Virus record (IMG/VR): IMGVR_UViG_2917886563_000005 | Source of the DNA: a virus | Taxonomy: Duplodnaviria; Heunggongvirae; Uroviricota; Caudoviricetes | Length of the DNA: 38,089 bases | Strand: one strand, 5' to 3' | Shown: in pieces, positions 1,041 to 37,753 of the stretch | Numbering within the stretch: the first letter of the stretch is position 1 | Layout: each line of letters begins with the position of its first letter | Translations under genes and position numbers: made by a program | Notes under the pieces: model-generated | Told to the model about the DNA's origin: nothing | The model's database searches: none | What the model saw: the letters and a program-made list of their open reading frames with translations, nothing else

Positions 1041-2786
1041 GTGGGGATTTTTTTACTAGGCCGCAAGTTCGAAGGATCAAGCTTACTTTTTGATAAGGGA
1101 CGCTTATTTTTACAGAACAGCGTTGATGGAAATGTCTTCCTTGTAGTTGAGAAAGGAGGAAATCGAGCGTTTCTTCATACTGGTGAAAAATTTATAGATT
1201 TTGTTAGAGTTGGGCACTTGTCACATTTGAAATGCTATCTCTCACGTGAGAGCGACAGACTTTTATACTGCGTTTCATCATTAGGTGATGCTATTGAGAA
1301 GACAGTAACAGCAAACAGAACAAAAGCAAGTGGCTGGGAAACATTTGATATGCTTCCTGCAAAAGACTTAAGCGAATCATCCCTTAATCAAATAGAAATG
1401 CTTAAGGAAATATATTTTAAAAATGATGATTTAACATCTGTTTTCAACAGAATTGTTAGATCAGATTTGATTGACAAAGGAAGAACGATTGAAAAGCTAA
1501 TTGAAATAATGAGCGTCGACGATAAGACATATATCTCTTATCATCTATCTAAAAACATCAGTGAATTAGCAACGCTTTCTGATATTTCAGATGATGCGCT
1601 ATTTAAAGCATTTGTTTCAAACCTAACCAACTACAGCAAAAAAATATCTGTTATAGATGAAAAACTTGATTTTTTATCTAAGCTTTCGAACCAAATTATT
1701 TCTAAAAACAGCTGGATTGAACTAATTCATAATTTAAGAAAAATATCTCCACCAAAACATAAATCATGCATTGTTGCAACATGCAAAAATGAAGGTGTTT
1801 ATCTTATTGAGTGGATAGCTTACCATCTAAGCATTGGGTTTGATGCAATATTTATATATTCTAATGGTAATGATGATGGTTCTGACGAACTACTTAATAA
1901 TCTTCATAATGAAGGAATCATATACTACATAAAAAACATTGTTGGAGATGGTGTTAGTGCACAAAACAAGGCTTATGCTCATGCACTAACAATTAACAAG
2001 GAGGTTCTAAATTATGAATGGAGTCTTTTCATTGATATAGATGAATTTTTTGTTTTAAACGAATACATGTTTTCTTCCATCACTGATTATCTAGACTGGC
2101 AAAACAAAAATGAAACTGACGCAATTGCTTTAAACTGGATGTTTAGCAAACCAGTGGAAAATAGCGACTGGATAAACAATCCAATAACTAAAAGATTGCC
2201 ATATATTAATAAAGAAGCAAGCGCTCATATCAAAACATTTTTTAAGCCTCACAAATTCTCAGGCTCAACCCCTCATTTCCCATTGTGCAATAGCAATTAT
2301 AAGTTCGCATATAGAGACTCTTCAGGTAACATTCATGAAAAGTCCATCACAAAAAATGATTTATCATTTTCTAACAAACCACAAAACTCACACGCTTACA
2401 TTATTCATTACTTCAATAGAAGTATAGCTGAGTTTATTTGGAAATACTCTAGAAACAGAGGTAATCACCCAAATACAAAAAGCGGAAATAACTTTACAGA
2501 ACACTTATTTCAGTTCCTTGGCTTCTTCACATCATCATTAGACTCACCACGGTTCGTGGAGAATGAATCAATTGCTAAAATGACTGACATCATTGATTCA
2601 AAAATTAGCGAAATAGTAGCAAGCGAATCAATACAAATTGCGTATGAGAATGTTAAGAACAGGACAAGAGAGCGTTACGAATTAATCGAACCTTTATTTT
2701 GGGAGTATTTAAAGGGAAACATCAACTCAGAAAAACATAAAGACTCAATTTCAGATTTTATATCTAGATTTAAAGAAAAAGCCTAA
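1041..2786 (+). CDS. Cargo gene: 581-aa protein with N-terminal ~240-aa region of unknown function and C-terminal GT-A-fold glycosyltransferase-like domain; candidate lysogenic-conversion glycosyltransferase
   Basis: Motifs CIVATCKNEGVYLIEWIAYHLSIGFDAIFIYSNGNDDGSDELL and DIDEF look like GT2/GT92-type nucleotide-sugar transferases; visibly AT-rich versus flanks; GTG start at 1041 with GAGGGG 6 nt upstream (start uncertain, internal ATGs exist). Confidence 0.65.
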   Translation: MGIFLLGRKFEGSSLLFDKGRLFLQNSVDGNVFLVVEKGGNRAFLHTGEKFIDFVRVGHLSHLKCYLSRESDRLLYCVSSLGDAIEKTVTANRTKASGWETFDMLPAKDLSESSLNQIEMLKEIYFKNDDLTSVFNRIVRSDLIDKGRTIEKLIEIMSVDDKTYISYHLSKNISELATLSDISDDALFKAFVSNLTNYSKKISVIDEKLDFLSKLSNQIISKNSWIELIHNLRKISPPKHKSCIVATCKNEGVYLIEWIAYHLSIGFDAIFIYSNGNDDGSDELLNNLHNEGIIYYIKNIVGDGVSAQNKAYAHALTINKEVLNYEWSLFIDIDEFFVLNEYMFSSITDYLDWQNKNETDAIALNWMFSKPVENSDWINNPITKRLPYINKEASAHIKTFFKPHKFSGSTPHFPLCNSNYKFAYRDSSGNIHEKSITKNDLSFSNKPQNSHAYIIHYFNRSIAEFIWKYSRNRGNHPNTKSGNNFTEHLFQFLGFFTSSLDSPRFVENESIAKMTDIIDSKISEIVASESIQIAYENVKNRTRERYELIEPLFWEYLKGNINSEKHKDSISDFISRFKEKA

Positions 2787-2796
2787 TCAATTTTCT

Positions 2797-2826
2797 GCGG
2801 AGGTAATCCACCTCCGCTATTTTATA
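2797..2826 (+). terminator. Intrinsic terminator after the glycosyltransferase-like gene, between convergent genes
   Basis: gcggaggt-aatcc-acctccgc (8-bp stem) followed by tattttataat. Confidence 0.5.
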
Positions 2827-2851
2827 ATACATTGTGTGATTTACAATATTT

Positions 2852-5116
2852 TCATTTCGATGAGTTAATTGCCTCAATGATACGCTTCAGGATTTCATTA
2901 TTTCTGCGTTGTAATGCAGCCTCAAGGACTAAGGCCTCTTCATAACGGATCCCATAACGTGAGCCTGCCGGAGTGACCAGAATATCTTCATATTCTGGAT
3001 CTGCCTCTTCTTCATACTCTTCTTCGACTTCTTGAAACTCTGTCTCGATGTACTCTTCTTCTACATCTTCAACTACAGGGACGCTCACGAATGGATTTTG
3101 CGCAAATGGTGAACCATCTTCATTAAGAACAGGTATCATTTCCATTTTTGGAGCCTGATACTCTTCATTCACTACTCGTTTAATCCGTGTTCCGTCTTCC
3201 AGTACCTCATCCTTTAATACCTGACGACTCTCAGTAACCATCACTTGTTTGCTTACAATTCGAGTTTTAGTAACCTGCACAGGAACTGTTGTTATGCGAG
3301 TTTTAGTAACCATTACACCTTCGTTTGTCTGAACCTTAGTATATTGATCATCCCACTCGTCAAAGCAAAAGAATCCAAATCGGTGCACATCAAGCCCATG
3401 ACGTTCAAACGCCTCCTTTGCACGTTGAGCTATTACGCCAAAATGCCAACGAGCTCCGTCTTCTCCTTTTTCTTCTGTTCTGTCAAGATACTGAAATTGA
3501 ACGAAGTCAACCTCTGACCATGCGTCAAGTATTGTATCAGTGATTTCAAGAGGTGCAGTTTTAGCTCGCTCATCTGAAGTAACGGTAAAGGCTGTTTGAG
3601 TGAATCCACCAGACCACACACGACCAGCAGTTCCGACCGTGCTATTACTGTTCTGTGAGTATGGTGTAATAGATGAGTCTACTCTTACAACCCCATCCCC
3701 CTTTGGAGATAGCCTCAAATCAATATCTGTATCGCTTCCAGCAACGCCAACAGCAGGAGCATTAGATGCTGTCTGTGAGCGCATGGCTAGATAATTGGCA
3801 GGAACTGTAGGCCCAGACTCTATGGAAAATATAGGTAACCCAGACGATAATCGTGTAAATACTACGCCATTATCACTAAATAACATTCTGGTTGATCTGG
3901 TTGCATCCTCCAAAACAGAGAGTATTTCAGAAGTTTTCTGATTTGAATTGTTGTACCAAGTCATTGAGTGTCTATTACCAAAAGCAATTGCCACACCTTG
4001 ACCTGTTGATTCTCCGTCGGTTCCTTTAAGGCTATTGCTGCCAAATACGATGCCCTTCAGAAAGCGTGCTGTTTTCCCAGCAGTTTTGTCGTTAGCTATT
4101 ATTCCAATTGCTGCCGATGCAGCATTCAACACTTCTCCAGCTTGGGTTAATTCACCACCTGAGCCTAACCATAATGCGTCAGTCTGACCGTTGGGGAACA
4201 TTGAATTAGGATACAGTTCACGCTCATTCCCCCTGTTTGCTATATCAAGTTCAAGACCGTGACTTGCTCCGATTGTTCCTGCATTTCTTACAGTTGAACC
4301 ATAAAGTGCCCATGCGCTAGACCTAACACCTGATGAATCATCGTTGTAAGCCATCCCGGCTACGGCAAGAGCAGCATTACCCGGTTCACCATCTCCAGTA
4401 TGAGCAGATCCAAAAATTCCTATCCCATCTGGTGGGGCAATCCCAACATTTCTACAGTGTCGCTCTAAATAGAAATAAATATTTCCCCCTAGCCCTGCCA
4501 TCCATGGCACTTGCCTTAACCAATACCCACCAATGAATGTAACATCCATTTCCATTTCCCACGATGTAAGTGGGTCTGAAACAATATCCTGACTTAACAA
4601 ATAAGTGCCAGCAGGAATATAAATTTTGCGCCTTGTCGCATTAGCCGCAAGAAACGCTTCAGTAGAATCAACAACCCCTGTTGGGTCAGCACCTCCGGCA
4701 AAACCACTCCAAGTAACAGGCTTTGCTAATCCTCCGACAAATCCAGCTCCACCAGGCCCCTCCAGTTCAGATCGCAGTTGATCGGGGTCATACTTCAGCA
4801 CATTAGGAAAATAGAACTGCTGCGCACCATATGCATCATATACAGCCATAGAATGGCCTTGCACAGTTACGAACTTGGCAATCTGTCCGTTATATACCGG
4901 GTAACCAGCAGCGTTAATGATGATTGGTTGCGAAACAGGAAAGTGAGAGCCGTCTTCGTTCTCCACATAAACCTGAATCTGGTTTTCAGGATTTACCGGG
5001 TCAGTGTCAATTTTACCGATATAAATTTTGCCATTGGCTACGGCTTTAAAAGAACGCGCCATAGTGAAGAGTTGCGAAGGCATACTCACTACAACATTAG
5101 CTGTAATGTCTGTCAT
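2852..5116 (-). CDS. Tailspike: P22 gp9-like N-terminal head-binding domain, different central receptor-binding domain, C-terminal S74-type intramolecular chaperone and Glu-rich tail
   Basis: N-terminus [11 protein letters not shown]...[11 protein letters not shown]...VLKYDPDQ matches recalled P22 gp9 residues 1-~110; C-terminal SDERAK...WHFGVIAQ is characteristic of the autocleaving chaperone domain. Confidence 0.85.
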
Positions 5117-5183
5117 TTAATTTGCTCCAGATACAAGGAATCGCCGCAGCATTGCCACAGTGATGCATTATTAATCAAACAAA

Positions 5184-5198
5184 GGGACCGCTGTGGTC
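5184..5198. promoter_or_regulatory. Imperfect palindrome in the mnt-tailspike intergenic region; possible Mnt operator
   Basis: gggaccgctgtggtc contains GACC/GGTC half-sites; weak, from memory of P22 Omnt. Confidence 0.2.
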
Positions 5199-5262
5199 TT
5201 ATTGAGGATGCAACCAGCAGATAATAAGATGCCGATCCACTCACAAAAGCGAGGCATCAAGA

Positions 5263-5514
5263 ATGGGAAGAGATGACCCGCAATTTAATCTGCGGCTACC
5301 TTACGAATTAAAGGAAAAACTAAAACAGCGAGCCAAATCCAATGGTCGCTCTCTTAATTCAGAATTAGTTCAGATAGTGACTGATGCTGTATCAAAGCCA
5401 TCCAAAATTTCAGGCTATCGAGACGATGCGGAACGAATCGCTGATGAGCAGTCCGAACTTGTTAAGAAGATGGTGTTTGATACGCTGAAAGATTTGTACA
5501 AAAAACCCACCTGA
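5263..5514 (+). CDS. mnt: Mnt repressor (ribbon-helix-helix), 83 aa
   Basis: Translation MGRDDPQFNLRLPYELKEKLK...KKMVFDTLKDLYKKPT closely matches recalled P22 Mnt; GAGG upstream of ATG. Confidence 0.85.
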   Translation: MGRDDPQFNLRLPYELKEKLKQRAKSNGRSLNSELVQIVTDAVSKPSKISGYRDDAERIADEQSELVKKMVFDTLKDLYKKPT

Positions 5515-5530
5515 TGGTGGGTTCCATTTA
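5498..5530. terminator. Bidirectional intrinsic terminator shared by convergent mnt and lipoprotein genes
   Basis: aacccacc-tgat-ggtgggtt with A-run upstream and T-rich run downstream; stem overlaps the mnt stop codon. Confidence 0.5.
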
Positions 5531-5950
5531 TTAGTCTTGCTTTGTGGACGGTATAAGTGATGCATTTGCCTCTTTTGGCTTCAAGGTATACATTCCACCA
5601 TTAAATGGATCTACAGCAAGCCAACCAATTAACCCACCAAACACAAGGTTTCCACCAATATACCAACCATTAGCATTGGCTTTGATTGGCAAGGTTACTG
5701 GCTCGTACCCATCCTTTTCCATAGTGATCTGATAGCTCTTTTTGCCAAAATAACTACCATCTGACTTGGCAAGAGTTACTCCTTGCGGGGTCTTACCTTG
5801 CGCAACAATCACGCCTGATTCGTCTTTTACCTTAAAGCTCGCACCGGAAGGATTGCTGTTCACTTGCACAAGCTGTGTTTCGTCACCAACAATAGTTGCG
5901 CACCCAGATAACAATATAGCGCCAGCAACGACGCCGATAATCCTCTTCAT
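5531..5950 (-). CDS. Predicted lipoprotein (139 aa), function unknown; candidate superinfection-exclusion factor
   Basis: Signal peptide with lipobox MKRIIGVVAGAILLSGC; sits where P22 carries sieA/immI genes. Confidence 0.65.
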   Translation of the reverse strand: MKRIIGVVAGAILLSGCATIVGDETQLVQVNSNPSGASFKVKDESGVIVAQGKTPQGVTLAKSDGSYFGKKSYQITMEKDGYEPVTLPIKANANGWYIGGNLVFGGLIGWLAVDPFNGGMYTLKPKEANASLIPSTKQD

Positions 5951-6471
5951 ATTACTTTCCGTTTTGTTAGAATCAGAAAGATCTTAATAATAAAAAGTAT
6001 TTTCGTGAAGATATTGTCGATTGAGTTAATAACTCATTTACACCCAACAGTGCCATGATGGCAAAGATAAGGAGAGTTAATCATATGAAAAAATCACTGT
6101 TAATTATCCCGCTTCTGCTGGCAGGGTGTGCAAAGGTTAGCGACTATCAGGCAAGTTGCGAACAACGCTATCCAAAGCTTAGCGATATGGCTAATTGCCT
6201 TGATGCTAGCGTGAAGAACGACTCACGCATGGCATCAGCACCAACACCTAAGTTATATGTCCTTGCTGCGAAGATGCTCGGGCAAGGTGTCGATGATGGC
6301 AAGATAAGTGACGCGCAGGCAAGGCTTGAGCTTCAGAATCTTTATGTTCAATTACAAAGCCAAGAACAAGCCCAACAAATAGCGCAAAGCCAAGCATTCC
6401 AGCAGGCTTTATTGGAGTGCCCCCAAGCCCGTAGACAAATCTGCCCTATAGTTTGAGCATAGGAGGAGTCT

Positions 6472-6756
6472 ATGGGCACACCACGATTTACCCCAGAGTT
6501 TAAGGAGGAAGCTGTCCGTCAGGTTACTGAACGGGGCTATTCCGTTGCCGATGTTTCTGAACGCCTCGGCGTATCGGCTCACAGCCTTTATAAGTGGGTC
6601 CGGTCAGTCAGACCGGATAACAGCGAGCATCAGGCGCAGGATTTACTGGATGCGCGGACGGAGATTCTCAGGCTTAAAGCGCAGCTTAAACGTACTGAGG
6701 AAGAACGGGATATTCTGAAAAAGGCAGCGCGGTACTTTGCAAGGGAGCCCGACTGA
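6472..6756 (+). CDS. IS3-family transposase OrfA (HTH, leucine zipper), 94 aa
   Basis: MGTPRFTPEFKEEAVRQV...LKKAARYFA is typical of IS3-family OrfA; AGGAGG RBS. Confidence 0.85.
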   Translation: MGTPRFTPEFKEEAVRQVTERGYSVADVSERLGVSAHSLYKWVRSVRPDNSEHQAQDLLDARTEILRLKAQLKRTEEERDILKKAARYFAREPD

Positions 6757-7607
6757 AGTACCGCTTCATCAACGATCACCGTGAAATCTGGTCGATCGTA
6801 ACAATGTGTCGGGTTCTGAAGGTCGCCCGTGCGGGATTTTACGTCTGGCTTCATCGCCCTGTTTCTGCCGGAGAAAAGGATAATCAGCGGTTGCTGGAGC
6901 TCATCCGCGATGCTTATGCACTGAGCGGCGGAGTCTACGGTTATCGCAGGGTTCACGGCGATCTTCGTGAAATCGGTGAAGTATGCAGCAGAAACCGTGT
7001 TGCCAGAATCATGAAGCGGAACAGGATACAGGCCGTACATGGCTATAAGGTCCCGCGTGGCGTCAGGGGAAGGCCGTCACTGATAGCTCCTAATCGCGTA
7101 CAGCGGGAATTTACGGTGGTAAAACCCAACCAGGTGTGGGTAACTGATATTACCTACATCCGCACCTGGCAGGGTTGGCTGTATCTGGCGGTGGTTATCG
7201 ATCTTTTTGCCCGTAATGTGGTGGGCTGGTCGATGAAACCAACGCTGTCGCGCGAGCTGGCACTGGATGCGCTGCTGATGGCAGTCTGGCGGCGTAAGCC
7301 TGCAGAAAACGTCATAGTGCACAGCGATCAGGGCAGTCAGTATGGCAGTGATGACTGGCAGCGGTTCTGCAGGGCCAACAATCTGGCGCCGAGCATGAGC
7401 CGTCGTGGCAACTGCTGGGATAATGCGGTGGCAGAATCGTTCTTCAGTTCACTGAAAAAAGAGCGCATCAGAAAGCGGATATATAAAACCCGGGACATGG
7501 CCCGGGCGGATATCTTCGATTACATTGAAGTGTTCTACAACCGGACCCGACGCCACAGTCATCTGGGTGGCGTCAGCCCGGAGGCCTTCGAAAAGGCCTC
7601 ACCGTGA
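6717..7607 (+). CDS. IS3-family transposase OrfB (DDE catalytic domain), made as an OrfAB fusion by -1 frameshift near GAAAAAG (6717..6723); first ATG of the OrfB frame is at 6804
   Basis: OrfB frame is open from the slippery run to 7607; conserved ...ITYIRTWQGWLYLAVVIDLF...HSDQGSQY...DNA... DDE-type motifs; stop lies within the right inverted repeat. Confidence 0.8.
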   Translation, partial: EKGSAVLCKGARLKYRFINDHREIWSIVTMCRVLKVARAGFYVWLHRPVSAGEKDNQRLLELIRDAYALSGGVYGYRRVHGDLREIGEVCSRNRVARIMKRNRIQAVHGYKVPRGVRGRPSLIAPNRVQREFTVVKPNQVWVTDITYIRTWQGWLYLAVVIDLFARNVVGWSMKPTLSRELALDALLMAVWRRKPAENVIVHSDQGSQYGSDDWQRFCRANNLAPSMSRRGNCWDNAVAESFFSSLKKERIRKRIYKTRDMARADIFDYIEVFYNRTRRHSHLGGVSPEAFEKASP

Positions 7608-7894
7608 GGACAGAAACTGTCTACCGGAATGTGGTCACTCCATTATTGAATTATCAGGCTGTAAACACAATGCAAGCGATCGAGCAAAAAGCGAGACAGC
7701 CTGTTATAACTCAACCCTATCCAACACGAGTTGACACTTACACAAACTGCAATTCAGGGTTTGGAAATACAGTCACATGCAACAGTAGCAGTAACATCAG
7801 ATAACAATCAGCAAAGGTATCGCCTATGCAGAGGGATACGATAAACCTCGCGTTCTACATATTTGATTTTTGCACGTTCCTGGTGTTTGAAAAG

Positions 7895-9892
7895 CTATTC
7901 TGACAACGCATCAGACTTAACACCCTGCGTCATAGCGTTAATAGCCTTTTGTGCCTGCTTCATGGCTTTCTCAAACGCTGTTGATCCGCGTGGGGTATTT
8001 GCCATTCGTAGCATTGCATTTCTGAATGGCTCACTCTCATAGGCGCGAGCAAGAAGGCCGTAGCTTACTGCTGCGCCAGTTGTCGCCGGGTTCATTGCCG
8101 TCCCATATCCGATAATGAACGGGATGGTTTGCTGCCCTGTTGGTGTTGTTACTGCCGCTTTTGCAGCCTGCTGCGTGGATTGCAGGTAGTTTTTCAATCC
8201 CCTCAGGTAAGCAGCATCCTGCCCCTTAAATGTGATACCCGTTTGGTTTTGCAGGATGTTAAGCTGTCGAAGGAACTGGTCAGGGGATCCACCTGATTTC
8301 TCTATCGCCTTTCCAATGATGCCATTGCGCATTTGCGCTCTTCCAACGCGACCAACTGAGTTATACAGCGTCTTAATTTCCGATTTGTTCTTGCTGAATA
8401 GCATGTTATTCACAACTTCCGGCGTCAGGTCGCCTTTCATGAGAATATTCTTCAGCCTGGTATTCTTTAGTTTCGCCGCTTCGTCAGCGTAGACGGCATT
8501 GGCCTGCTGATATTTACGAAGAGTATCATTGCCAAGATTCTGACCAATGGCACCATTGATATCGTCGGTCATCGCCTTGTAAACGCGCTGTATGGCGGCA
8601 TCGGAACGGTTTGGTAACACTGGTCGCTCACCCTTCACGTCCATTCTGAACTGGCTGCGCAGATCGCTTAATTGCTTCAAATCCAGATTTACCGGACCAT
8701 CAGGACCAGCATTGCGAATAAGCTCATCACGATAGGATTGAAGTTTTGAAATCGTCTCGTTATCAGCGACCTTACCAAGCTTCTGCAGGTTAGATATCTC
8801 AGTATCAATCTGCTGAATTGCTCGCACAGGCTGAATGTTGACTCCCGCCATTGCATTCTGAACCTGTTCAAGTCGATTACCTGCAGCACGACGAATTCCT
8901 GATGTTTTCGCTTTAAGGCTTTCAATAACAACAGCTGGATCATACTCACCGAATTTATCAGCAAATCTCTGCACCAACTGGCTTCTCGCTTCCTGTTGCG
9001 TTGCTCTCATTCCGCTTGTGCCAGCCAGAGGGATATTTTCTGCTGTAGTCTGCGCCATTTTTCCGACGCGGGAAGTAGGTTGTAACAGGTCTGTGGTGTG
9101 CAGAGGCACTCCTTCACGCTCTGCAAACCTGATAGCCTGTTGCGCTTCTGGCGCTATCGCACCACGAACTCCACGATAAGCAGCACCTAATCCACGTCCG
9201 GCAGCGTTAATAGCTCCGCCAGCCAGAACGCCAACGCCTAAGTCGGTGGCTAGTGCTTCCGCATCATCTTTCACACTGTTTGCAGCAAGTGATCCAACTG
9301 CGTTTTCAGCGAGAAGGCGAGTTGCACCCTGAGCAATTCGACCAGCAAGTGTTGGTGCCTGTGTTGCCGCTCTCTCAACGCCGGCAGGAGTGAGGTAAGG
9401 CAATGCTTCAGCAAATACCCTGCCCTCTGTCGTTTGTGGAGTCAGCGCACCTTGCTGAAGGCCAAAGTCCTGCTCTAATCCATGCGTTGTTACTCGTGGC
9501 GCTGGTTGATATGTTCCATCGCCAATGCCGAGTTTACCGCCAGCCCATGCAGCCGCGCTTGTTACAGCATCGGCAACCGATGCAGGTATGTTTGCCACGT
9601 TCACGCCAGCCTGCACCAGTCCGCGACCAGTCTCTTTTACTGCTTCGCCAAGATCAGACATAAATCCACTTTGCTGTGGTTGTTGCTGTGCTACTGGTTG
9701 CTGTGTCTCCACTGGCTGCACAGATGGCAATGGATAGGCAGCATAGAAAGCTTGCTTAGCCTGCTCTGCATTTTCTCCGGCTTGCGGGGCCACGACTTCA
9801 TTGAAGTATTGCTCCTGAGCCTGCGCTTTTTGTTCTGGTGCTAACGCCTGATACTGTGGAGAGGCGATAACATCTTTCCATGCTTTAGCCAT
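7895..9892 (-). CDS. P22 gp16-like ejection (E) protein
   Basis: Position and size (665 aa) in the conserved P22 order 4-10-26-14-7-20-16; Ala/Gly/Gln-rich. Confidence 0.7.
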   Translation of the reverse strand: MAKAWKDVIASPQYQALAPEQKAQAQEQYFNEVVAPQAGENAEQAKQAFYAAYPLPSVQPVETQQPVAQQQPQQSGFMSDLGEAVKETGRGLVQAGVNVANIPASVADAVTSAAAWAGGKLGIGDGTYQPAPRVTTHGLEQDFGLQQGALTPQTTEGRVFAEALPYLTPAGVERAATQAPTLAGRIAQGATRLLAENAVGSLAANSVKDDAEALATDLGVGVLAGGAINAAGRGLGAAYRGVRGAIAPEAQQAIRFAEREGVPLHTTDLLQPTSRVGKMAQTTAENIPLAGTSGMRATQQEARSQLVQRFADKFGEYDPAVVIESLKAKTSGIRRAAGNRLEQVQNAMAGVNIQPVRAIQQIDTEISNLQKLGKVADNETISKLQSYRDELIRNAGPDGPVNLDLKQLSDLRSQFRMDVKGERPVLPNRSDAAIQRVYKAMTDDINGAIGQNLGNDTLRKYQQANAVYADEAAKLKNTRLKNILMKGDLTPEVVNNMLFSKNKSEIKTLYNSVGRVGRAQMRNGIIGKAIEKSGGSPDQFLRQLNILQNQTGITFKGQDAAYLRGLKNYLQSTQQAAKAAVTTPTGQQTIPFIIGYGTAMNPATTGAAVSYGLLARAYESEPFRNAMLRMANTPRGSTAFEKAMKQAQKAINAMTQGVKSDALSE

Positions 9893-22957: not shown

Positions 22958-23395
22958 TTATTTCAAACACTGCGTCCTAATGTAATCCTGCAAGTAGTTA
23001 ACCTGCGCGGTTATCCTGTCGATTCCACTTCGGAGACGGTAATAATTGAGTTCAGCATCTGCTGTAAGTCTTGGGCTTTCTCCATCGCCCATGCTGCTGG
23101 CTCCGGTCGTTGACTTTGCACAGGTGGCGGCGACTTGCAGGCGCTTACGACCAGCAGAAACATCAGCACGGAGACTTTCGATAGTCGCGTTAGCATCAGC
23201 AAGCTCCTTTGTATATCTGGCGTCGAGTTCTGCTACATTGCGTTGACGTTTCTGCATGTCAGCGATAATGAATGCGGCCTTATCGCGCTGTTCTTTGTAG
23301 GCGATGGCGTTATCACGGTAATGATTAACAGCCCATGACAGGCAGACGACGATGCAGATAACCAGAGCGGAGATAATCGCGGTTACTCTGCTCAT
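22958..23395 (-). CDS. Rz: Rz-like i-spanin, 145 aa
   Basis: N-terminal TM segment, coiled-coil body, directly downstream of the endolysin. Confidence 0.75.
23011..23202 (-). CDS. Rz1: Rz1-like o-spanin lipoprotein embedded within Rz in another frame (start uncertain)
   Basis: Lipobox LLVVSAC followed by Pro-rich segment, fully inside Rz. Confidence 0.6.
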
Positions 23396-37408: not shown

Positions 37409-37753
37409 ATGTCAGATTTGGCTATGAAGATTTTGAAATGGCAATCGACTGGCGATGTCGGCATCAGTAGCGCAACTCTTGCCTCAATCGCATGTGGACT
37501 GAAAAAGAATATCTATGGTCATCACTTCGGCGCTCCACATGACGCAGCCGATTTCCGACGATGCGTTGCACTTGTTGAGCAGATTCCAGAAATCAGAGAT
37601 TCATTCGACAAGGTTGCAAAGCGCGTTCCGGCATTCAAAGGCATCCTCAACGAATGGGATTCCCTCGTTGCTCTGTTGAAGTCTGAAATGAAGATACACG
37701 GAAACAAAGCACCAGAGACTTACAGAAGAATTAGCGAACTACGCAAGGACTAA
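37409..37753 (+). CDS. Hypothetical 114-aa protein upstream of xis
   Basis: ORF in operon orientation; no recognised domain. Confidence 0.45.
   Translation: MSDLAMKILKWQSTGDVGISSATLASIACGLKKNIYGHHFGAPHDAADFRRCVALVEQIPEIRDSFDKVAKRVPAFKGILNEWDSLVALLKSEMKIHGNKAPETYRRISELRKD

What the first reader, a model, noticed from the sequence alone, without database searches (positions are those of the whole stretch)
5531..7804. Two lipoprotein genes at the P22 sieA/immI position, one apparently intact
Between gp16 and mnt, where P22 has sieA and other exclusion genes, there are two oppositely oriented genes with classical lipoboxes (LLSGC at 5531..5950; LLAGC at 6085 onward). Neither resembles a lipoprotein I can name. 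Outer-membrane lipoproteins at this position in temperate phages often block DNA injection by related phages.
Basis: partly seen in the sequence, partly recalled or inferred. Interest (0 to 1): 0.6.

Follow-up and report, generated by a model that had tools for sequence, protein, structure and literature searches.

The report
Two prophage lipoprotein genes, one IS-broken
A P22-like E. coli prophage carries, at the spot where phage P22 keeps its exclusion gene sieA, two uncharacterised lipoprotein genes that are switched on in lysogens; one is intact and one is split by an insertion sequence, and what either does is still untested.

Summary
5531-5950(-) encodes an intact 139-aa lipoprotein (lipoA, LLSGC). 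6085(+) starts a 161-aa lipoprotein (lipoB, LLAGC) that is cut after codon 110 by a 1,230-bp IS3-family element (6413-7642, TTAT duplication); its 3' remainder is 7647-7804.

Both pass a PROSITE-type lipobox rule, and the Cys is invariant or nearly so across homologues. Both are under purifying selection. In the near-identical LF82 prophage Gally they are transcribed far above the silent late genes.

The two genes have different histories.
- **lipoB** (phrog_6067) is the resident of the sieA slot. In 80/80 related viral loci it lies between mnt or the tailspike gene and gp16, convergent with gp16.
- **lipoA** (phrog_6823, epsilon34 gene 15) is an optional cassette. It belongs to a lipoprotein family kept at 50% identity or more across Proteobacteria, and it also occurs inside lambdoid tail-gene clusters.

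Neither resembles SieA, Cor, Llp or any Pfam, PADLOC or PDB entry. Superinfection exclusion remains a positional guess. It is more plausible for the broken lipoB than for the intact lipoA. This is a solid, ordinary-to-moderately interesting moron locus with no demonstrated function.

The parts
5263..5514 (+). mnt repressor gene; upstream neighbour of the cassette, on the same strand as lipoB
   Evidence: Pfam Arc 2.8e-22 and Repressor_Mnt 2.2e-18. Annotated as Mnt in Gally, 720R6 and epsilon34.
5504..5523 (.). GC-rich hairpin shared by the 3' ends of the convergent mnt and lipoA genes. It is followed by a T-run on the minus strand, so it is probably the lipoA terminator.
   Evidence: Terminator-like site. 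The same element is annotated as a Rho-independent terminator in epsilon34.
5531..5950 (-). lipoA: intact 139-aa lipoprotein gene (phrog_6823; homologue of epsilon34 gene 15). Lipobox LLSGC is at codons 13-17 (5900-5914). The fold is a PEGA/transthyretin-like beta-sandwich with an invariant Gly-rich hydrophobic loop at residues 95-113.
   Evidence: 100% protein identity to Gally. 135 synonymous against 9 non-synonymous codon differences.
5951..6084 (.). 134-bp divergent promoter spacer between lipoA and lipoB
   Evidence: Promoter-like hexamers on the + strand at 5946-5991. 134/134 identical to LF82/Gally, where both genes are transcribed.
6085..6412 (+). lipoB 5' part (codons 1-110; lipobox LLAGC at 6115-6129; helical domain with Cys25 and Cys38). 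As it stands, the ORF reads on into the IS and ends at 6456 (123 aa).
6409..6412 (.). left copy of the TTAT target-site duplication
   Evidence: Comparison with the uninterrupted gene in L001.
6413..7642 (+). IS3-family insertion sequence (ISEc15-like, 1,230 bp). Terminal repeats at 6413-6437 and 7618-7642; orfA 6472-6756; orfB in the -1 frame, running to 7607.
   Evidence: Pfam HTH_Tnp_1, rve and HTH_21. NCBIfam transpos_IS3 1.6e-102. Positions 1-1230 align at 99.3% to an IS copy on E. coli plasmid CP054248.1 and at 89% to ISEc15 copies. Inverted-repeat pair I1.
7643..7646 (.). right copy of the TTAT target-site duplication
7647..7804 (+). lipoB 3' remainder (rest of codon 110 to codon 161, plus the stop). 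It holds the conserved Cys144/Cys154 hairpin motif. It has no frameshift or stop, and its 6 differences from 720R6 are all synonymous.
7895..9892 (-). gp16-type ejection-protein gene, convergent with lipoB (90 bp stop to stop)
   Evidence: Annotated as an injection or DNA-transfer protein in Gally and 720R6. The neighbouring genes hit Inj_translocase and P22_gp7.
2852..5116 (-). tailspike gene bounding the accessory region on the other side
   Evidence: Pfam Head_binding 1.4e-66 and Peptidase_S74.

Best explanation
This is the accessory ('ant moron'/immI-side) region of a P22-like (Lederbergvirus) E. coli prophage. It holds two independently acquired, lysogen-expressed genes for outer-membrane-sorted lipoproteins.

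lipoB is the resident of the slot that sieA fills in P22. It lies downstream of mnt and convergent with gene 16. It has a lipid anchor, a disulfide-containing helical domain, a Gln-rich linker, and a strongly constrained C-terminal Cys hairpin. I infer that it acts from the outer membrane and periplasm as an entry or superinfection-exclusion factor against P22-like phages. That would make it functionally analogous to, but unrelated to, inner-membrane SieA. In this window it has been knocked out recently by an ISEc15-like insertion that removes the hairpin.

lipoA, the intact gene, is a self-contained cassette with its own promoter and terminator, dropped between mnt and lipoB. It is a phage-borne copy of a pan-proteobacterial envelope lipoprotein. 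It has a beta-sandwich held close to the membrane by a 7-residue tether, and an invariant Gly-rich hydrophobic loop. I infer that it changes a conserved property of the host outer membrane (lysogenic conversion) rather than recognising a phage part.

What is shown: gene structure, lipoboxes, IS anatomy, synteny, selection, and transcription in an orthologous lysogen. What is inferred: lipidation, outer-membrane location, and both functions.
For: Lipoboxes and conserved Cys.

IS anatomy and the restored ORF.

lipoB synteny:
- It lies between the tailspike/mnt side and gp16, convergent with gp16, in Serratia, Morganella, Yersinia, Proteus and Salmonella phages.
- In 80/80 IMG/VR loci it lies between the tailspike/mnt side and the downstream gene. 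In 77 of 79 loci it is 2-188 bp, stop to stop, from a long convergent ORF at the gp16 position, which falls into at least 3 sequence types.
- No P22-type sieA was found in any of these loci.
- P22 sieA has the same geometry and its own promoter.

lipoA as optional cargo at a hot spot:
- The mnt-to-lipoB gap is 91 bp in 39 loci, 570 bp (lipoA) in 8, and 692 bp with other cargo in 13.
- It also occurs in lambdoid tail clusters, at a non-phage Enterobacter locus, and in 303 species at 51-80% identity among the 80 best.

Expression: in LF82/Gally, log2(fpkm+5) is 9.8-11.0 for lipoA and 7.9-10.3 for lipoB during growth and inside macrophages, against 3.6-4.2 for the adjacent gp16 (PMC9928086 Tables S1 and S4). 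The promoter spacer is 134/134 identical to the window.

Purifying selection: lipoA 135 synonymous to 9 non-synonymous; lipoB 784 to 124, and 257 to 5 in codons 111-161.

Structure: the lipoA sandwich is modelled confidently, while its Gly-rich loop is below pLDDT 50. The lipoB helical domain has pLDDT 80-87.
Against: - No functional data exist for either family. PHROGs lists both as unknown and PADLOC has no hit.
- The slot is hypervariable and also holds genes of unknown function (hkcB, orf59a; PMC2629481). Position alone is therefore weak evidence for exclusion.
- Near-identical lipoB sits beside very different gp16 types, so there is no co-variation with a presumed target.
- Distant lipoB-family members lie in non-phage or unclear contexts.
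- lipoB is repeatedly pseudogenised in E. coli, which could mean it is dispensable or costly.
- The main text of a CRISPRi gut-fitness screen of LF82 does not single out these genes.
- The LF82 expression data come from another strain.
Confidence: 0.4

Rival explanations
1. One reading: both genes, and in particular the intact 139-aa one, encode outer-membrane lipoproteins that block DNA injection or adsorption by related phages, in the manner of Cor or Llp.
For: - Both are lipoproteins expressed from the prophage.
- lipoA homologues sit next to genes for receptor-binding or ejected proteins: between tail genes I and J, just upstream of tape-measure genes, and about 400 bp from the tailspike gene here.
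- From my own knowledge rather than a test here, Llp is also a small beta-rich lipoprotein that acts on an outer-membrane barrel from the periplasmic side.
Against: - lipoA is kept at 50% identity or more in chromosomes of Halomonas, Nitrosomonas, Mariprofundus and Syntrophaceae and at a non-phage Enterobacter locus. A phage-specific target is therefore unlikely.
- Similarity to Cor is confined to the signal peptide.
- PADLOC has no hit.
- P22-like phages adsorb to O-antigen, not to a protein receptor that a periplasmic lipoprotein could mask.
Confidence: 0.15
2. Neither gene concerns phages. Both are host-fitness conversion genes (envelope robustness, serum or macrophage survival), comparable in role to lambda Bor.
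For: - Both are induced in macrophages relative to stationary LB culture: log2FC 3.84 for lipoA and 2.55 for lipoB.
- Both are highly expressed during growth in culture medium.
- lipoA comes from a housekeeping-like bacterial family.
- The cassette is found in 124 (lipoA) and 186 (lipoB) of 5,426 complete E. coli genomes, including AIEC LF82.
Against: - lipoB's close (>=50% identity) homologues were found only in P22-like prophages, at one fixed position next to the ejection-protein genes, in every context examined across five genera. That fits a phage-directed role better.
- Much of the difference from LB may simply reflect growth phase: rpsT behaves the same way in the same table.
- No fitness effect is reported in the main text of the CRISPRi screen.
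Confidence: 0.3
3. The proteins serve the lytic cycle, for example in lysis or egress, or in protecting progeny from re-adsorbing to debris as T5 Llp does, and are only incidentally transcribed in lysogens.
For: lipoA is on the late-operon strand here, and is co-oriented with the tail genes in lambdoid prophages, so read-through late expression is likely.
Against: - In LF82, expression is high while the late genes are silent.
- lipoB is antisense to the late operon.
- Most relatives lack lipoA, so neither gene is needed for growth.
- The phage already has Rz/Rz1.
- From general knowledge, the tailspike is itself receptor-destroying.
Confidence: 0.1
4. The genes are decaying passenger DNA with no current function.
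For: lipoB is IS-disrupted here and broken in several other genomes.
Against: - Purifying selection is strong in both genes.
- The lipobox and other Cys residues are conserved.
- Both are actively transcribed.
- The orphan 3' fragment shows no decay.
Confidence: 0.04

Closest known systems
P22 SieA (superinfection exclusion A)
   Same: Same genomic slot: immediately after gene 16 and convergent with it, on the mnt strand, with its own promoter, and expressed from the prophage (PMC10883804). lipoB and P22-type sieA were never found together in 80 loci.
   Different: SieA is described as an inner-membrane protein with predicted transmembrane helices and has no lipobox. lipoB and lipoA are lipoproteins with no hydrophobic segment beyond the signal peptide (lipoB), or only a Gly-rich loop with a Kyte-Doolittle mean of about 1.3 by my hand calculation, below the usual 1.6 cut-off (lipoA). 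There is no sequence similarity. Exclusion is demonstrated only for SieA.
Cor (phi80, N15, HK022, mEp167) and T5 Llp receptor-masking lipoproteins
   Same: Small phage-encoded outer-membrane lipoproteins, made by the phage or prophage and encoded near receptor-binding genes.
   Different: The only similarity is to the signal peptide of phrog_1119: residues 1-20 (E=0.003) for lipoA and 1-29 (E=0.09) for lipoB. From general knowledge, Cor and Llp target FhuA for siphoviruses, whereas P22-like phages use O-antigen. lipoA and lipoB are about twice the size.
Lambda Bor / Iss
   Same: A prophage lipoprotein moron, expressed in lysogens, that acts on a host phenotype.
   Different: No PHROG or Pfam match to Bor. 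The phenotype of lipoA and lipoB is unknown.
Salmonella phage epsilon34 gene 15 (phrog_6823), and phrog_6067 ('putative lipoprotein' gp14 of Proteus phage Brookers)
   Same: These are the same families. lipoA is 97.8% identical to epsilon34 gp15. lipoB is 54% identical to Brookers gp14, which occupies the same position.
   Different: Nothing differs in kind. Both are annotated only as hypothetical, and epsilon34 gene 15 was noted in 2008 as matching bacterial genes of unknown function (PMC2629481).
PEGA / transthyretin-like / CnaB beta-sandwich domains
   Different: The score is below the Pfam gathering threshold of 20.8. The invariant Gly-rich hydrophobic loop is not part of those domains. 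The fold itself says nothing about function.

Membership tests
Bacterial lipoprotein (Lgt/LspA substrate; PROSITE PS51257 type) | Basic n-region, uncharged h-region, lipobox [LVI][ASTVI][GAS]C, with Cys at position 15-35 | tested here: met
   lipoA has VVAGAILLSGC with Cys17. lipoB has LLIIPLLLAGC with Cys15. The Cys is invariant in lipoA homologues and invariant or at least 90% conserved in lipoB homologues.
Bacterial lipoprotein (Lgt/LspA substrate; PROSITE PS51257 type) | Actual diacylglyceryl modification and signal peptidase II cleavage; outer-membrane sorting by Lol (no Asp at +2) | not testable with these tools
   The +2 residue is Ala in both proteins. Outer-membrane sorting follows from the E. 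coli +2 rule. It needs globomycin or palmitate labelling and membrane fractionation.
SieA superinfection-exclusion proteins (types A-C) | Sequence homology to SieA | tested here: not met
   tblastn with P22 SieA found nothing in 80 lipoB loci. PHROG and Pfam searches with lipoA and lipoB give no SieA family. Types B and C were not tested directly.
SieA superinfection-exclusion proteins (types A-C) | Inner-membrane protein with several predicted transmembrane helices | tested here: not met
   The only window with a Kyte-Doolittle mean above 1.6 over 19 residues is the lipoA signal peptide. lipoB's best window is 1.32, also in its signal peptide. The models are a beta-sandwich and a soluble helical bundle.
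SieA superinfection-exclusion proteins (types A-C) | Located between gene 16 and gene 9 of a P22-like prophage, and expressed from the prophage | tested here: met
   for position. for expression of the orthologues in LF82.
SieA superinfection-exclusion proteins (types A-C) | Blocks DNA entry of superinfecting P22-like phages | not testable with these tools
   Needs plating and DNA-injection assays.
Cor / Llp receptor-masking lipoproteins | Homology to Cor (phrog_1119) or Llp beyond the signal peptide | tested here: not met
   Matches cover only residues 1-20 (lipoA) and 1-29 (lipoB), with E=0.003 and 0.09.
PEGA domain (PF08308) | Score at or above the Pfam gathering threshold | tested here: inconclusive
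   17.6 bits against a cut-off of 20.8. The fold-level match supports a related sandwich.
LEPBI_I2678 family (NF047662) | Score at or above the NCBIfam cut-off | tested here: not met
   22.9 bits against a cut-off of 240. Only residues 68-133 align.
Moron (autonomously expressed prophage accessory gene) | Own promoter and terminator; present or absent among otherwise related phages; transcribed in the lysogen while the flanking late genes are silent | tested here: met
   Variable presence. Terminator and promoter-like sites. LF82 RNA-seq with an identical promoter spacer.
IS3-family insertion sequence | About 1.2-1.5 kb; TG...CA imperfect terminal repeats; 3-4 bp target duplication; orfA (HTH) and orfB (DDE rve) in the 0 and -1 frames | tested here: met
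   The orfB frame is -1 relative to orfA, and A AAA G lies near the end of orfA.

The most novel reading that the evidence does not exclude
The lipoB family (phrog_6067) is a periplasm-facing, outer-membrane-anchored superinfection-exclusion system of P22-like podoviruses. In this reading it is an unrelated functional replacement for inner-membrane SieA, and its highly constrained C-terminal disulfide hairpin blocks the needle or the ejection-protein conduit before it reaches the inner membrane. A bolder corollary is that lipoA reveals the function of an unannotated pan-proteobacterial outer-membrane lipoprotein family that temperate phages of several architectures borrow to alter a conserved envelope step.
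Probability: 0.3. Interest if true: 0.65.

Novelty: new member of a known kind. Interest (0 to 1): 0.4.

Why it matters
From my own knowledge, P22 SieA is the one well-studied system thought to block DNA delivery by short-tailed phages, and only about a third of P22-like phages carry it (22 of 66; PMC10883804). A second, unrelated protein family sitting in exactly that slot, expressed in lysogens and under strong purifying selection, is an obvious candidate for the missing exclusion function. It could be tested directly with the existing P22 ejection-protein hybrid phages.

Separately, lipoA points to a widely conserved proteobacterial lipoprotein family that has no Pfam or NCBIfam model and no known role. 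Both genes are among the most highly transcribed genes of the Gally prophage of the Crohn's-associated strain LF82, which was reported to carry no morons.

If neither gene has a phenotype, this is simply one more pair of uncharacterised prophage accessory genes.

Tried and rejected
**Sequence and structure searches that gave nothing specific**
- Pfam, NCBIfam, PHROGs and PADLOC gave no functional family for either protein.
- Profile searches against PDB sequences gave nothing meaningful.
- The afdb50 library was unavailable.

**Leads that did not hold up**
- Clustering the neighbours of lipoA in 80 species found no conserved partner; the best neighbour family occurs in 7 loci.
- Attempts to find genomic contexts for distant lipoB relatives failed. 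The alignments were too diverse to scan with and a viral scan found none.
- I checked whether the serum-resistance gene orf10 of prophage phiv142-3 (PMC7724020) is one of these genes. Its deletion primers match nothing in the window or in the fetched loci, so I found no link.
- The weak similarity of the lipoB linker to the gp16 N-terminus (33% over 51 aa, E=0.008) lies between Gln-rich stretches and was found with composition correction turned off, so I attribute it to composition.

**Other negatives**
- Rfam found no RNA family, including no sar RNA.
- Literature searches by accession and locus tag found nothing.
- The main text of the LF82 CRISPRi screen does not mention these genes.
Full report
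**1. What is in the sequence**

The window is a P22-like prophage read in reverse orientation. Its features, in order:

| Coordinates | Strand | Feature |
|---|---|---|
| 1-477 | + | host PEBP-family gene |
| 1041-2786 | + | 581-aa glycosyltransferase |
| 2852-5116 | - | tailspike (Head_binding + Peptidase_S74) |
| 5263-5514 | + | mnt |
| 5531-5950 | - | the 139-aa ORF, here called lipoA |
| 6085 onward | + | a second ORF, here called lipoB |
| 7895-9892 | - | gp16-type ejection-protein gene |
| beyond 9892 | - | gp20 (Inj_translocase) and gp7 homologues |

There is no arc, ant or sar, and Rfam finds no RNA family.

Both satisfy a PROSITE PS51257-type rule. Only five sites in the window pass it, including the Rz1 spanin and a false positive inside the repressor gene. 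Both have Ala at +2, so by the E. coli Lol rule they should go to the outer membrane. That last step is inference.

**2. The second gene is interrupted**

Phages Gally, vB_EcoP-720R6 and VSe13 carry the same region without 1,230 bp of the window. In them lipoB is a 161-aa protein.

- The insert is 6413-7642. It begins TGGAGTG and ends CACTCCA, with 25-nt imperfect terminal repeats.
- It is flanked by a TTAT duplication at 6409-6412 and 7643-7646.
- It encodes an HTH orfA and a DDE orfB in the -1 frame.
- It aligns end to end with an IS3-family copy on an E. coli plasmid (99.3%) and with ISEc15 copies (89%).
- It cuts lipoB after codon 110. The gene now ends in 13 IS-encoded residues (123 aa), and the last 51 codons are orphaned at 7647-7804.
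- That fragment has no stop or frameshift, and its six differences from 720R6 are all synonymous. The insertion is therefore recent.
- None of 5,426 complete E. coli genomes has the same insertion.

**3. lipoB is the resident of the sieA slot**

Homologues at 50% identity or more number only 94 clusters, all from Enterobacterales.

- Every context examined is a P22-like prophage with lipoB between the tailspike/mnt side and gp16, convergent with gp16. This holds in Serratia, Morganella, Yersinia, Proteus phage Brookers and Salmonella phage VSe13.
- In 80 IMG/VR loci with lipoB at 96% identity or more, 77 of 79 have its stop 2-188 bp from the stop of a long convergent ORF at the gp16 position.
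- That neighbouring ORF falls into at least three types of 665, 615 and about 705 aa, which share less than 70% identity.
- No P22-type sieA was found in any of the 80 loci.
- P22's sieA has exactly this geometry and its own promoter.
- The commonest arrangement is mnt, a 91-bp gap, then lipoB, on one strand (39 loci).

A profile search of 1.84 billion representative proteins found 262 clusters. Most are 125-140 aa. They share the N-terminal domain (Cys25 and Cys38 conserved) and a C-terminal T-x-C...G...C hairpin. None has a Pfam family and all hit phrog_6067. Two distant members lie in non-phage or unclear contexts.

**4. lipoA is optional cargo from a bacterial family**

- Only 9 of the 80 lipoB loci contain lipoA.
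- The mnt-to-lipoB gap is a cargo hot spot. It is empty (91 bp) in 39 loci, holds lipoA (570 bp) in 8, holds a 121-aa HExxH protein plus a 64-aa protein (692 bp) in 13, and holds other cargo in a few.
- lipoA is 97.8% identical to epsilon34 gene 15. The authors of that genome listed gene 15 as having no phage match but many bacterial matches, and placed it in the variable 'ant moron' (PMC2629481).
- Homologues also sit inside lambdoid tail clusters: between T and the tape-measure gene in E. coli ED1a-type prophages, upstream of the tape-measure gene in Proteus, and between I and J in Pseudescherichia-type prophages.
- One homologue is at a non-phage chromosomal locus in Enterobacter.
- A scan of one genome per species found 303 species. 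The 80 best are 51-80% identical over about 120-139 residues. They include Halomonas, Shewanella, Nitrosomonas, Mariprofundus and Syntrophaceae.
- There is no conserved neighbour.

**5. Both genes are functional and expressed in lysogens**

Selection, measured as codon differences from the window allele among close alleles. These are summed pairwise counts, so they are not independent events.

| Gene or region | Synonymous | Non-synonymous |
|---|---|---|
| lipoA | 135 | 9 |
| lipoB, whole gene | 784 | 124 |
| lipoB, codons 111-161 | 257 | 5 |

The 134-bp divergent spacer is 134/134 identical to LF82 prophage Gally.

The published LF82 RNA-seq tables (PMC9928086, Tables S1 and S4) give these log2(fpkm+5) values:

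| Gene | Culture medium, 1 h and 6 h | Macrophages, 1 h | Macrophages, 6 h | Stationary LB |
|---|---|---|---|---|
| GALLYPH_14 (lipoA) | 9.8-10.5 | 11.0 | 9.4-9.5 | 4.8-6.2 |
| GALLYPH_13 (lipoB) | 7.9-8.2 | 10.3 | 8.5-8.7 | 6.0-6.3 |
| adjacent gp16 gene | 3.6-3.7 | 4.0 | 4.1 | 3.6-3.9 |

That paper called Gally 'devoid of morons'. In stationary LB the two genes had normalised counts of 70 and 51, just under its five-fold cut-off of 78.

So both genes behave as morons. Part of the macrophage-versus-LB difference may simply be growth phase, because rpsT behaves the same way in the same table.

**6. What they are not**

- Neither has a PADLOC hit.
- Similarity to Cor is confined to the signal peptide.
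- No P22-type SieA was detected in the 80 lipoB loci, and lipoA/lipoB matched no SieA family in Pfam or PHROGs.
- Neither has a relative among solved structures by sequence.
- The characterised gene in this slot, SieA, is described as an inner-membrane protein with predicted transmembrane helices.

**7. Most likely mechanism**

Shown: two lysogen-transcribed lipoprotein genes under purifying selection, one resident in the slot and one optional, with the resident gene broken by an IS.

Inferred for lipoB: its position is fixed next to the ejection-protein genes across five genera, it is mutually exclusive with sieA in that slot, and it has the layout of a membrane anchor, a linker and a constrained hairpin. 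These make an entry-blocking role in the periplasm the best guess, at about 0.4 for that gene. In this prophage the function is probably lost.

Inferred for lipoA: its conservation across Proteobacteria implies a conserved host target in the envelope. I favour a change in outer-membrane properties over recognition of a phage component. Exclusion as a side effect is still possible, at about 0.25.

**8. Rivals**

- Both genes are exclusion factors (0.15).
- Neither concerns phages (0.3).
- They serve the lytic cycle (0.1).
- They are dead cargo (0.04).

**9. Other observations**

- lipoB is broken independently elsewhere. An ISEc52 element sits after about codon 70 in NZ_OZ038590.1, and several protein clusters represent frameshifts, truncations or fusions.
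- In complete E. coli genomes, lipoA is present in 124 of 5,426 and lipoB in 186 of 5,426, with 182 essentially full length.
- Among 50,697 phage records, lipoB is in 5 and lipoA in 3 distinct phages.

**10. Verdict**

Both families were already in databases as hypothetical proteins. They are best described as uncharacterised members of the known class of prophage lipoprotein morons. Interest is moderate, because the exclusion hypothesis is cheap to test and the slot is biologically meaningful.

Noticed in passing
window 6413-7642; also L191 (NZ_OZ038590.1) 2579-3747: The ISEc15-like element looks intact: both terminal repeats, orfA and orfB in the 0 and -1 frames, and A AAA G near the end of orfA. 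A different IS (ISEc52) has hit the same gene in another E. coli, and several database protein clusters are frameshifted, truncated or fused versions of lipoB. The gene is therefore broken repeatedly in lysogens despite strong purifying selection on intact alleles.
   Followed up: partly
window 5117-5262: mnt abuts the tailspike gene with no arc, ant or sar. The 146-bp spacer holds an imperfect palindrome (GACCGCTGTGGTC, about 5186-5198) that resembles the P22 mnt operator half-sites. In LF82, mnt and the tailspike gene are co-induced in macrophages, so Mnt may now govern tailspike-side transcription.
   Followed up: no
window 1041-2786 (+): A 581-aa GT2/GT92-type glycosyltransferase gene lies between the host PEBP-family gene (1-477) and the tailspike gene. 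It is probably an O-antigen-modifying conversion gene at the prophage end.
   Followed up: no
window 2852-5116 (-): The tailspike combines the P22 head-binding domain with a C-terminal endosialidase-type intramolecular chaperone domain (Peptidase_S74) and a Glu-rich tail.
   Followed up: no
L096 2349-3043, L086 2556-4106, L075 and L059 (IMG/VR loci): The gap between mnt and lipoB is a cargo hot spot. Alternatives to lipoA include a 121-aa HExxH-motif protein with a 64-aa partner (13 loci), small coiled-coil proteins, and a ClpP-like 178-aa protein.
   Followed up: partly
L005, L007, L009 (E. coli ED1a-type lambdoid prophage): The same tail-gene cluster carries a lipoA homologue (between T and the tape-measure gene) and a phage-borne porin gene (between M and L). 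That makes two outer-membrane cargo genes in one late operon.
   Followed up: no
L108 7001-7573, L109 512-1084: A distant member of the lipoB family (P0292, 190 aa) lies immediately upstream of a TIR-domain protein and a STAND NTPase with WD40 repeats. This looks like a defence-island context.
   Followed up: no
PMC9928086, Tables S1 and S4 (LF82_138 and LF82_139): The paper states that Gally carries no morons. Its own tables show these two genes about 4-7 log2 units above the adjacent late gene during growth in culture medium and in macrophages. They missed the five-fold stationary-LB cut-off narrowly (70 and 51 against 78).
   Followed up: yes
window 23202 (-) within Rz (22958-23395): A 63-aa embedded ORF with the lipobox [11 protein letters not shown] is the expected Rz1 o-spanin. 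A further lipobox-rule hit at 37409 (+), 114 aa, has no Pfam match and was not examined.
   Followed up: no
lipoB residues 77-127 against gp16 residues 23-73: Both the lipoB linker and the N-terminus of the neighbouring ejection protein are Gln/Ala-rich (33% identity over 51 aa, E=0.008 without composition correction). This is probably compositional.
   Followed up: partly
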